A program made the translations under genes and the position numbers. Positions 8,301-12,260 of a DNA stretch of 64,000 bases are shown here, piece after piece; position 1 is the stretch's first letter, and each line of letters opens with the position of its first letter. Origin of the DNA: the human T2T-CHM13v2.0 reference genome, Homo sapiens. Below the pieces are notes generated by a model that was given only the letters and a program-made list of their open reading frames with translations, did no database searches and was not told the origin of the DNA. The stretch lies in the NCBI RefSeq assembly GCF_009914755.1, contig NC_060931.1, one strand, 5' to 3'.

Positions 8301-8571
8301 CTGCAACAAAAGAACAGAATATAACACTTTCTCAGAGCCATGCTAATGATGTGTTGTATTAAAGAATGTTGATGAACTGCTGACAGTTAATCTTATTCAG
8401 GCCGTATTCTCATGAGGTCATAGATCTATATTAAGTTTTTTTACAAAGAACAAAGATCCTGGCACACTGTAGGCCAAACAAACGTTTTCTAAATGAAGTG
8501 TTGCCTTATTAACAACCTAGCTTGTAGGTTGGGAAGTTTTTAGATTCAAGGGACAAAGTAGCAAAAATGTG

Positions 8572-10082
8572 CCCTCTCCCTCACCCTCACCTTCTCCCTC
8601 TCCCTCTCTCTCTCCCGTCTCCGTCGTCTCTGTCTCCTGCTTTCCACGGTCTCCCCCTCTCCCTCGTCTCCGTCTCCCGCTTTCCACGGTCTCCCTCTGT
8701 TGCCGAGGCTGGACTGTACTGCTGCGATCTCGGCTCACTGCAACCTCCCTGCCTGATTCTCCTGCCTCAGCCTGCTGAGTGCCTGGGATTGCAGGCGCGC
8801 GCCACCACGCCTGACTGGTTTTTGTATTTTTTGGTGGAGACGGGGTTTCGCCGTGTTGGCCGGGCTGGTCTCCAGCTCCTGACCACGAGTGATCTGCCCG
8901 CCCTGGCCTCCCGAGGTGCCGGGATTGCAGAGGGAGTCTTGCTCACTCAGTGCTCAATGTTGCCCAGGCTGGAGTGCAGTGGCGTGATCTCTGCTCGCTA
9001 CAATCTCCACCTCCCAGCCACCTGCCTTGGCCTCCCAAAGTGCTGAGATTGCAGCCTCTGCCCGGCCGCCACCCCGTCTAGGAAGTGAGGAGCGTCTCTG
9101 CCTGGCCGCCCATCGTCTGGGATGTGAGGAGCCCCTCTGCCTGGCCGCCCAGTCTGGGAAGTGAGGAGCGCCTCTTCCCGGCTGCCATCCTGTCTAGGAA
9201 GTGAGGAGCGTCTCTGCCTGGCCGCCCATCGTCTGGGATGTGGGGAGCGCCTCTGCCCGGCCGCCCTGTCTAGGAGGTGAGGAGCGTCTCTACCCGGCCA
9301 CCACCCCGTCAGGGAACTGAGGAGCGCCTCTGCCCGGCCGCCCCGTCTGAGAAGTGAGGAGCCCCTCTGCCCGGCCACCCCGTCTGAGAAGTGAGGAGCC
9401 CCTCTGCCCGGCAGCCGCCCCGTCTGGCAGGTGGGGGGGCGCCCCCGCCCGGCAGCCGCCCCGTCTGGGAGGTGGGGGGCGCGCCTCTGCCCAGCCGCCA
9501 CGTCTGGGAAGTGGGGAGCCCCACTGCCCGGCTGCCACCCCGTCTGGGAGGTGTACCCAACAGCTCATTGAGAACGGGCCATGATGACGATGGCGGTTTT
9601 GTCAAATAGAAAAGGGGGAAATGTGGGGAAAAGAAAGAGAGATCAGATTGTTACTGTGTCTGTGTAGAAAGAAGTAGACATAGGAGACTCCATTTTGTTC
9701 TGTACTAAGAAAAATTCTTCTGCCTTGGGATGCTGTTAATCTATAACCTTACCCCCAACCCCGTGCTCTCTGAAACATACGCTGTGTCAACTCAGGGTTA
9801 AATGGATTAAGGGCGGTGCAAGATGTGCTTTGTTAAACAGATGCTTGAAGGCAGCATGCTCGTTAAAGAGTCATTACCACTCCCTAATCTCACGTACCCA
9901 GGGACACAAACACTGCGGAAGGCCGCAGGGTCCTCTGCCTAGGAAAACCAGAGACCTTTGTTCATATGTTTATCTGCTGACCTTCTCTCCGCTATTGTCC
10001 TATGACCCTGCCAAATCTCCCTCTCGGAGAAACACCCAAGAATGATCAATAAATACTAACAAAATTAAAAAAAAAAAAAAAA
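8572..10082 (+). mobile_element. Full-length SVA retrotransposon (older A/B-like subfamily)
   Basis: CCCTCT-type hexamers from 8572; antisense Alu-like domain about 8690-9055; GC-rich VNTR about 9055-9550; SINE-R (GTGTACCCAACAGCTCATTGAGAACGGGCC...) 9551-10055; AATAAA 10048-10053; poly-A to 10082. Confidence 0.97.
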
Positions 10083-10084
10083 GA

Positions 10085-12260
10085 GAAAATACAACTTGAA
10101 ACATTGCAGTTGAAAATGAAGACAAAGGAAACACTTCAAAAGCAACCAGAGGCCAAGCACAGTGGCTCACATCTGTAATCCCAGCACTTTGGGAGGCCAA
10201 GTCAGGTGGATCGCCTGAGGTCAGGAGTTCAAGACCAGCCTGGCCAACATGATGAAACCCCATCTGTACTAAATACAAAAATTAGTCGGGCATGATGGCA
10301 CATGCCTGTAATCCCAGCTACTTGGGAGGCTGAGGCAAGAGAATCTCTTGAACCCAGAAGGCAGAGGTTGCAGTGAGCCGAGATTGCACCACTGCACTCC
10401 AGCCTGGGCCACCAAGCAACATTCTGTCTCGAAAGAAAGAAAGAGAGAAAGAGAGGGAGGGAGGGAGGGAGGAAGGAAGGTAGGAAGGAAGGAAGGAAGG
10501 AAGGTAGGAAGGAAGGAAGGAAGGAAGGAAAGACGGGAGGAAACCAGACAGAAAAAATAACTTACAAAGGAACAAAAAGTAGACTAACAGGAGACTTCAT
10601 GCATGCAAAAATAAAGGCCAGAAGACAATCAAATAATATCTATAGATTGAGGAGAGAAAAGTATTTCCAGCTAAGCTATCATTCAAGAGGAAGAGTAAAT
10701 AAAAACACTTTCAAGGCCAGGCATGGTGGCTCACACCTGTAATCTCAGCACTTTGGGAGGCCAAGGCAGGCGGATCACCTGAGGTCAGGAGTTCGAGACC
10801 AGCCTGGCCAACATGGTGAAACCCCGTCTCTACTAAAAATACAAAATGTAGCCAGGCGTGGTGGCGCGTGTCTGTAATCCCAGCTACTAGGGAGGCTGAG
10901 GCAGGAGAATCACTTGAACCCGGGAGGCGAAGGTTGCAGTGAGCCAAGATCCCACCACTGCACTCCAGCGAGACTCTGTCTCAAAAAAAAAAAAAAAAAA
11001 AGAATGTTCGACTTTATAAGGGTGTTGTTCTTTCTTGCTTGTCTATAACTTTAATGTGATTTTTCAAATTTTCCCCAAGGGTTTTTGTTGTTGTTGTTGA
11101 GACAGGGTCTCAACTTTGTCACCCAGGCTGGAGTGCAGTGATGTGATATCAGCTCACTGCAACCTCTGCCTCCCAGGCTCAAGCAATCCTCCCACTTCAG
11201 CCTCTCTAGTAGCTGGGACTACAGACACGTGCCACCATGCCCAGCTAGTTTTTGTATTTTTAGTAGAGATGGGGTTTCGCCATGTTGGCTGGTCTTGAAC
11301 TCCTGGGCTCAAGCAGTCCACCCTCCTCAGCCTCCCAAAGTGCTGGAATCACAGGCATGAGCCACTTTCATGACTCTGTCTCAAAAAAAAAAAAAAAGTC
11401 TCAATCATTAAAACAGTGTGATATTAAGATATTAACAGACAGACCCAAGGAAGAAAATAGAAAGTCCCAAAATAAATAGAGCTATGTGGAGAATTTTAAC
11501 TTAAGGAAAACGTGACATTTCAACACAACAGGAAAATGATAGATTATTCAACAAATAGTGCACTGAGTAGGCATCTGAGGAAAAAAATGAGATTCACACT
11601 TCATATACAAATTGCAAATGGATGAAATGTAAAAGGAATAAATGGAGGGTCAGAGAGAAAGAAAAAGAAACCTTAAACATACTGAAATAAACTCTGGGAA
11701 GGCCTCCCTAACTGTGATACAAAAGTCAAATGCATTTTTAAATAAAAAGATATTAATTCCACTGCTTCAAGATCAAAAATCTCCATATGGCCAAAAAAAA
11801 ATCACAGTTGCTACTCATAACATAAAAGGCTAACTTCAAAGAACTTCAAATTCATAAGAAAAAAATAACCTATATAAAAATGGACAAAGGGTATGAACAG
11901 ACAGTTCTCAGAAACATTAAAAAATATTCAACCTCATTCCTCATAAAAGATCCAAGTTAAAACTCTCCTCAGATATTTATCTTTTCATATTATATTGACC
12001 AAGATGAAAAAACATGGGTATACTCATAAGTTACAGATAGGTTTGTAAATTGGTTCACCCTCTACAGAGGAAATTTGGCAATAATTACCAAAAGAACAGA
12101 CTTCACACCTTTTGACCTAGCAATTCCAGTCCTAGGGCACCATCTAGGATATACAGATATTTTTGCACATATGCCAAATGCCACTCCTGAGGGACCCAGA
12201 AAAAAGTCTAAACAAACAAACAAATGGTTTGGCAATAACCTCATAAATTATATACAAATC
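10085..12260 (+). mobile_element. Fragmented ancient L1 (L1M), interrupted by Alus (+10150-10432, +10715-11001, -11098-11365)
   Basis: A-rich; ORF1-like GCCAGAAGACAA...CAGCTAAGCTATCATTCAAG; ORF2-3'-like TTATTCAACAAATAGTGC, AAAAATGGACAAAGGGTATGAACAGACAGTTCTCAG, TTTGACCTAGCAATTCCA. Confidence 0.65.
10433..10540 (+). repeat. (GGAA)n/(GGGA)n purine microsatellite at an Alu tail
   Basis: GGAA runs of 2, 5 and 6 units separated by GGTA. Confidence 0.95.

What the first reader, a model, noticed from the sequence alone, without database searches (positions are those of the whole stretch)
8545..10110. SVA without matching target-site duplications marks a three-way mosaic junction (7q32 | KMT2C | EFCAB3-METTL2 duplicon)
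Seen: the 5' flank (AAAGTAGCAAAAATGTG) and 3' flank (AAGAGAAAATACAACTTG) each look like A-rich L1-endonuclease targets but do not match. I found no partner for either nearby. The upstream Alu and MER33 are both truncated at about 8020, and only the last two EFCAB3 exons follow. Known: METTL2A/B arose by a hominid segmental duplication. Inference, two models: (a) an SVA carrying a KMT2C 5' transduction inserted in EFCAB3 on chr17, and the duplication breakpoint cut inside the transduced DNA; (b) this SVA is a recombinant of a KMT2C-resident and an EFCAB3-resident SVA. Either way an SVA sits at the breakpoint that created METTL2B.
Basis: partly seen in the sequence, partly recalled or inferred. 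Interest (0 to 1): 0.7.

Follow-up and report, generated by a model that had tools for sequence, protein, structure and literature searches.

The report
Jumping gene at METTL2B duplication seam
An SVA retrotransposon sits exactly at the seam where a 150-kb piece of chromosome 17 was copied into chromosome 7, and it likely made that seam by starting its insertion on chromosome 17 and finishing on chromosome 7, which would make a jumping-gene accident the origin of the human gene METTL2B.

Summary
The anatomy is real. Left to right: 7q32 DNA ending in a cut Alu; 545 bp copied from a KMT2C intron (97%, only two copies in the genome); a full-length SVA of B/C type with no target-site duplication (4 of its 5 closest relatives have one); then, from the end of its poly(A), a 154-kb colinear copy of chr17q23 (EFCAB3 end, METTL2, part of TLK2) that ends in an Alu/Alu hybrid. 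Both first-reader models fail as predicted: the chr17 site and the KMT2C site are both empty, and no parent switch is seen in the SVA. The chr17 copy begins exactly at an L1-endonuclease-type site (TTTT/AT), so the poly(A) junction looks like target-primed reverse transcription on chr17-type DNA. SVA, KMT2C piece and duplication are the same age within error. Best reading (0.55): an aberrant SVA insertion bridged chr17 to a chr7 break and founded the duplication. Main rival (0.28): the SVA came later into the chr7 copy and deleted the original seam. Ape genomes decide. The duplication is in print; its SVA seam was not found in 10 searches.

The parts
7474..7730 (+).
   Evidence: 39 other copies at 67-90% among 40 scored; two relatives run ~50 bp further
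7752..8005 (-). Native 7q32 Alu, cut before its end; left breakpoint at 8005 or 8020
8006..8024 (.). 19-nt linker: partly Alu-like (8011-8020), no exact 12-mer source in the three stretches tested; at least 4 nt (8021-8024) belong to neither side
8025..8569 (+). 545-bp copy of a KMT2C intron, chr7:153358246-153358791, antisense to KMT2C transcription
   Evidence: 97% identity, 2 copies genome-wide; gene identity and strand
8570..8571 (+). Two extra bases (TG) between KMT2C piece and hexamers
8572..10080 (+). Full-length SVA, B/C type: hexamers, Alu-like part, 13-unit VNTR, SINE-R, poly(A); no TSD
8968..9276 (+). SVA-derived exon of the HILPDA-EFCAB3P1 read-through transcript (second acceptor at 9018)
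   Evidence: hub annotation NR_190220.1; AG acceptors and GT donor confirmed in sequence
10081..10086 (-). L1-endonuclease-type site: the empty chr17 allele reads 5'-TTTT/AT-3' on the minus strand exactly where homology starts
10081..64000 (+). Proximal part of the chr17q23 duplication (EFCAB3 end, METTL2B); continues outside the window to chr7:129929850 = chr17:63431478, ending in an Alu/Alu hybrid with 9-10 bp shared

Best explanation
The SVA's poly(A) end abuts chr17-derived DNA at an L1-endonuclease-type site that is empty on chr17, and the element likely began inserting there on chr17 but had its other end joined, through a KMT2C fragment, to a break at 7q32, which would have founded the 150-kb duplication. 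Steps: (1) shown: poly(A) meets chr17 sequence at TTTT/AT, chr17 is empty, no TSD; inferred: L1 ORF2p nicked the EFCAB3 intron and reverse-transcribed an SVA RNA. (2) Shown: 545 bp of KMT2C intron lie 5' of the SVA, antisense to KMT2C, with no SVA at the source; inferred origin: most likely a 5' transduction from a since-lost SVA in that intron (0.45), else twin priming of the chr7 end on KMT2C pre-mRNA (0.3) or DNA-templated capture (0.25). (3) Inferred: the cDNA end was joined to a broken Alu at 7q32, giving a 7;17 junction. (4) Shown: the chr17 copy ends 154 kb later in an in-register Alu/Alu hybrid with a subtelomeric-type duplicon; inferred: an Alu-mediated template switch or crossover returned to chr7, turning a translocation into an insertion and losing the DNA between the two chr7 breaks. 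The intact chr17 came from the other chromatid or homologue.
For: Exact coincidence of poly(A) end and start of chr17 homology; site class makes up 1.1-1.5% of positions; chr17 upstream 1057 bp has no copy elsewhere, so no TSD partner, reciprocal product or circular permutation was seen. Ages agree: duplication 1.91% non-CpG pairwise over 24,365 sites (0.96% per lineage), KMT2C piece 1.37+-0.52% pairwise, SVA private changes 6 of 728 = 0.82+-0.34%. VNTR units fit SVA_B/C, which arose after the orangutan split (PMC4432496 passages), and the duplication is dated to the human-gorilla ancestor (PMC13333887 passages). One event explains both cut ends on chr7. Poly(A)-marked bridges between chromosomes are shown in L1-induced cells and tumours (bioRxiv 2024.12.14.628481 section 8; 152 bridged rearrangements in bioRxiv 2024.08.27.596794), and an SVA plus Alu/Alu junctions in one germline chromothripsis case (review PMC4859970 passages). 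Source SVAs are often unfound: 34 of 67 singleton transductions had one (PMC12593883 passages).
Against: Nothing tested here shows that insertion and duplication were simultaneous; the SVA age error (about 40%) allows a gap of several million years. A later insertion with deletion gives the same final sequence. No ape or other human genome was available. The KMT2C end carries only a weak endonuclease motif (2-3 mismatches), slightly against a lost source SVA. The order of the distal Alu/Alu junction relative to the proximal one is unknown; the neighbouring duplicon is of similar divergence (95-96%). The chr7 sequence that once followed the cut Alu was not found in the stretches sampled, a test of low sensitivity.
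Confidence: 0.55

Rival explanations
1. The duplication came first with a seam further left; an SVA (with the KMT2C piece) later inserted into the chr7 copy of the EFCAB3 intron and deleted everything back to the Alu, erasing the original seam (SVA insertion-mediated deletion).
For: Explains no TSD, empty chr17 site, EN motif and cut Alu with known cis steps only. 13 such deletions of 14-8,741 bp (30,785 bp in all) are reported for the human lineage (PMC3362811 passages); megabase cases in NF1 (PMC4229983 passages).
Against: Needs two events and a deletion that happens to span the seam: 30.8 kb over 3.1 Gb is about 1e-5 per seam (my arithmetic; with some thousands of seams, an assumed number, one case genome-wide is not excluded). 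SVA is not measurably younger than the duplication.
Confidence: 0.28
2. One reading: a normal SVA insertion with KMT2C 5' transduction existed on an ancestral chr17 allele, the duplication broke inside the transduced DNA, and that chr17 allele was later lost.
For: Fits the junction sequence; polymorphic SVAs are lost often.
Against: chr17 site empty; KMT2C source empty; needs two lost alleles and a break within about 1 kb of a rare polymorphic insertion.
Confidence: 0.08
3. One reading: recombination between an SVA in KMT2C and an SVA in EFCAB3 produced a hybrid element.
For: SVA-SVA recombination at duplication ends is described for lcr16a (PMC9132208 abstract and passages).
Against: Neither parent exists here; no switch of nearest relative between 5' and 3' parts among 5 relatives; does not explain why only 545 bp of KMT2C is present or the 7q32 junction.
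Confidence: 0.04
4. A replication-based complex rearrangement (serial template switching) copied KMT2C, an SVA from a third locus and chr17 in turn, the poly(A) meeting the chr17 A-run by microhomology rather than by reverse transcription.
For: Short linker and captured fragment resemble template-switch junctions (PMC4229983 passages).
Against: The captured piece is exactly one SVA from hexamers to tail, with no flank of any donor; the best of 40 scored relatives is only 92% identical.
Confidence: 0.05

Closest known systems
L1-mediated (retrotransposon-bridged) translocations and large insertions in tumours and L1-induced cells (bioRxiv 2024.12.14.628481; bioRxiv 2024.08.27.596794)
   Same: Poly(A) at an endonuclease site on one chromosome, 5' end joined to another, no TSD at the junction
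   Different: Here germline, fixed in the reference, an SVA rather than L1, a third-locus fragment in the bridge, and the outcome is a 150-kb gene-bearing duplication
SVA insertion-associated deletions (NF1, PMC4229983; SIMD, PMC3362811)
   Same: SVA with EN site and poly(A) but no TSD at a breakpoint
   Different: Those join two points of one chromosome; here the two flanks come from different chromosomes. This locus could still be one (rival 1)
SVA at lcr16a/NPIP duplication ends (PMC9132208)
   Same: Hominid SVA at a segmental-duplication boundary with unmatched TSD halves
   Different: There: recombination of two existing SVAs, subfamily hybrids at both ends, circular permutation; none seen here
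Germline chromothripsis with SVA_E and Alu/Alu junctions (Nazaryan-Petersen 2016, seen only through review PMC4859970)
   Same: SVA insertion plus Alu/Alu joins in one germline rearrangement
   Different: Single patient family, deletion rather than duplication
5'-transducing SVAs (PMC12593883) and antisense RNA/L1 chimeras ascribed to twin priming (bioRxiv 2025.02.02.635956)
   Same: Unique sequence of another locus 5' of the element
   Different: No source SVA, no sibling copies, no TSD enclosing the whole

Membership tests
SVA retrotransposon | Hexamer head, Alu-like part, VNTR, SINE-R, poly(A) | tested here: met
   39 other loci among 40 scored candidates, 85-93%
SVA_B/SVA_C | B' unit in 5' array, 41-42-bp units, C unit before terminal T, no long KGC' arrays (PMC4432496) | tested here: met
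   unit lengths 40,39,37,40,39,37,40,37,37,41,42,37,T; unit letters assigned by me from the paper's text, figure not seen
SVA_B/SVA_C | B versus C diagnostic positions | not testable with these tools
   no subfamily library; recall of the Alu-like start favours B
Canonical L1-mediated insertion | Poly(A) at an endonuclease site | tested here: met
   TTTT/AT on the empty chr17 allele
Canonical L1-mediated insertion | Target-site duplication | tested here: not met
Retrotransposon-bridged rearrangement | 5' and 3' flanks from distant loci, donor site empty | tested here: met
Retrotransposon-bridged rearrangement | Insertion and rearrangement in one event | tested here: inconclusive
   ages overlap within wide error
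SVA insertion-mediated deletion | Pre-insertion allele holds extra DNA between the two flanks | not testable with these tools
   no ape genomes held
SVA-SVA recombination hybrid | Parental SVAs at both donor loci | tested here: not met
SVA-SVA recombination hybrid | Switch of parent within the element | tested here: not met
   L045 closest in both parts; weak test, 5 relatives
5'-transducing SVA group | Source SVA next to the transduced DNA; sibling copies | tested here: not met
   a lost source cannot be excluded
Circular-intermediate duplication | Permuted order, donor upstream DNA at the far end | tested here: not met
   colinear at all sampled points, upstream 1057 bp not copied

The most novel reading that the evidence does not exclude
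A single aberrant SVA retrotransposition in the African-ape ancestor bridged chr17 to chr7 and, closed by an Alu/Alu switch 154 kb away, created the duplication that gave METTL2B: a fixed germline case of target-primed reverse transcription founding an interchromosomal, gene-bearing segmental duplication.
Probability: 0.5. Interest if true: 0.72.

Novelty: new variant of a known kind. Interest (0 to 1): 0.55.

Why it matters
How interspersed segmental duplications start is an open question; Alu homology and, for lcr16a, SVA recombination are the described routes. A seam that carries the poly(A)/endonuclease signature would show that the retrotransposon-bridged rearrangements seen in tumours also built a fixed human duplication and a protein-coding paralogue. 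It is directly testable in T2T ape assemblies, and suggests a genome-wide screen for TSD-less young elements at duplication ends. If the rival holds, it is an ordinary SVA deletion that happened to remove a seam.

Tried and rejected
TSD search in the window and against both source loci: none. SVA at chr17 or KMT2C source (28 kb each): VNTR, SINE-R and hexamer queries gave 0 hits. Sibling elements with the KMT2C piece: none. Circular intermediate or reciprocal product: not seen. A-rich 5' flank as evidence of a KMT2C-resident SVA: at chance level. Search for the missing end of the cut Alu and MER-type element in the window and 9 downstream loci: nothing, but only part of the region was fetched and a 50-bp old tail is hard to detect. 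(Alu-rich 10-kb queries) did not even score the self match and were discarded. One search misaligned tandem Alus and was redone. Ten literature searches found no description of this SVA seam; Damert 2009 and Hancks 2009, which catalogue 5' transductions and could list it, are not held; the one supplement of PMC10681720 held as text had no hit, its large tables were not visible.

Full report
Observation. The window holds a complete SVA at 8572-10080: about seven hexamers, an Alu-like part, a 13-unit VNTR, the SINE-R part and a poly(A) tail. Neither quoted flank recurs in the window at up to 3 mismatches. As a control I scanned the five closest relatives that were fetched (best 5 non-self rows of 40 scored): 4 of 5 have a 10-15-nt direct repeat abutting head and tail, one (L046) has none, and the window element has none. 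VNTR unit lengths fit subfamilies B or C as described in PMC4432496 (passages seen); that paper states SVA_B is absent from orangutan. Preference for B over C is from recall.

Left side. Window 8025-8569 is 97% identical to chr7:153358246-153358791 and has no other copy. An exon on the minus strand 1.36 kb further on encodes the MLL3/KMT2C HMG box, so the piece is intronic and antisense to KMT2C. The source is empty: it runs on into unrelated DNA, and hexamer, VNTR and SINE-R queries gave 0 hits in chr7:153349001-153377000. Left of the piece are 4 to 19 linker bases and an Alu that stops short at 8005-8020, itself sitting in an older MER-type relic whose last ~50 bp are missing.

Right side. 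chr17 homology starts at window 10081 = chr17:63281357, at the end of the poly(A). The chr17 allele is empty, with no SVA or KMT2C piece in 63261001-63288993. At the first homologous base the chr17 minus strand reads TTTT/AT, one mismatch from the L1 endonuclease consensus; 1.1-1.5% of positions in those stretches are as good. A caveat: a poly(A) tail will align to the start of any A-run, so the motif is partly built into the junction. The A-rich look of the 5' flank is at chance level (best sites 2-3 mismatches; 51-92% expected). The 1057 bp upstream of the chr17 site have no copy elsewhere.

Extent. I sampled the duplication rather than aligning it whole: matches at window 10081-17695, 55500-64000 and six further points are colinear and on the same strand. 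Using a processed TLK2 pseudogene as query, chr7 carries TLK2 exons up to chr7:129928490 and not the next one. The copy ends at chr7:129929850 = chr17:63431478 inside an Alu that is chr17-type to the left and, after 9-10 shared bases, of the type found in a subtelomeric duplicon family (21 other matches, 83-96%). Length: 153.8 kb on chr7, 150.1 kb on chr17. Duplicated DNA of 7p and subtelomeric type is still present at chr7:129970300-129972396 and a probe at 129977150 is unique; the 33 kb between 129937300 and 129966000 were not examined. PMC13333887 (passages) describes this duplication as about 200 kb, from chr17 to chr7, at the human-gorilla ancestor, and has 0 occurrences of SVA.

Ages. 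Skipping columns within 3 bases of a gap and keeping alignments above 93%, the duplication differs at 674 of 25,315 sites (2.7%; 1.91% at 24,365 non-CpG sites; range 1.6-2.3% over 7 segments) and the KMT2C piece at 9 of 519 (1.7+-0.6%; non-CpG 1.4+-0.5%). The SVA has 6 private non-CpG changes in 728 columns against five relatives (0.82+-0.34%; relatives 0.69-1.92%). Per lineage: 0.96%, 0.69% and 0.82%. They are indistinguishable, which allows but does not prove one event.

Model (a) needs the KMT2C piece and SVA on chr17, model (b) needs two resident SVAs and a switch; all are absent. Each survives only through lost alleles (0.08 and 0.04).

Mechanism. With about 2,800 SVAs (PMC3362811 passage) in 3.1 Gb, a tail meeting a given seam within a few bases by chance is about 1e-5 (my arithmetic), so the SVA is causally tied to the present seam: it either made it or re-cut it. 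Best reading (0.55): L1 machinery primed an SVA RNA at the EFCAB3 intron on chr17; the far end of the cDNA was joined, via the KMT2C fragment, to a break at 7q32; an Alu-mediated switch 150 kb along returned to chr7. Bridges of this kind are shown in L1-induced cells and tumours (bioRxiv 2024.12.14.628481, section 8 read whole plus passages; bioRxiv 2024.08.27.596794 passages), and a germline case joining an SVA with Alu/Alu junctions is summarised in PMC4859970 (passages; the original was not seen). One event then accounts for the missing TSD, the empty donor and both cut chr7 ends. Main rival (0.28): a later SVA insertion into the chr7 copy with deletion of the original seam, a known process (PMC3362811, PMC4229983 passages) that leaves the same sequence; it needs two events and a deletion that straddles the seam. 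For the KMT2C piece, 5' transduction from a lost source is the most ordinary account (sources found for only 34 of 67 singletons in PMC12593883, passages); its antisense orientation is also what twin priming on the pre-mRNA would give (bioRxiv 2025.02.02.635956 passages). The sequence cannot separate these.

Comparison and novelty. It is an SVA; it is not a canonical insertion (no TSD), not a demonstrable SVA-SVA hybrid of the lcr16a kind (PMC9132208 abstract and passages), and not a circular-intermediate duplication. It works like a retrotransposon-bridged rearrangement; membership hinges on timing, which is inconclusive here. Ten searches (listings seen) found no account of this seam; two key 2009 catalogues are not held, and supplementary tables that I could not see may list the element. 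Verdict: real, likely undescribed in this form, a new variant of a known kind; interest 0.55.

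Noticed in passing
window 2985-3464, 8968-9276, 12352-12474: The SVA is exonised in the annotated HILPDA-EFCAB3P1 read-through RNA; all splice sites are canonical. The HILPDA stop at 3244 lies 220 nt before the donor at 3464, so this isoform is a predicted NMD target and could drain HILPDA transcripts.
   Followed up: partly
chr7:129929850-129972396 (L036, L042, L050): The chr17 copy abuts a further duplicon shared with subtelomeres and 7p (translated fragments look GTF2I-like, from recall); 7q32.1 is an accretion site of at least four pieces.
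   Followed up: partly
window 56585-56890 and 35424-35725: An Alu at about 56585-56887 is absent from the chr17 paralogue and is 98% identical to the Alu at 35424-35725: a young insertion or local conversion.
   Followed up: no
L042:7495 to L043:75 (chr7:129973495-129976075): A 2.6-kb LTR-type element with both ends appears inserted inside an Alu (read by eye).
   Followed up: no
L046 (chr8:49418731-49420194): A close relative of this SVA also shows no TSD in my scan; it may be another aberrant insertion.
   Followed up: no
L036:879-1458, L037:925-1485, L017:9163-9740: A 580-bp L1 3' fragment inserted inside the Alu that holds the distal seam, present on both chr7 and chr17, so older than the duplication.
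   Followed up: no
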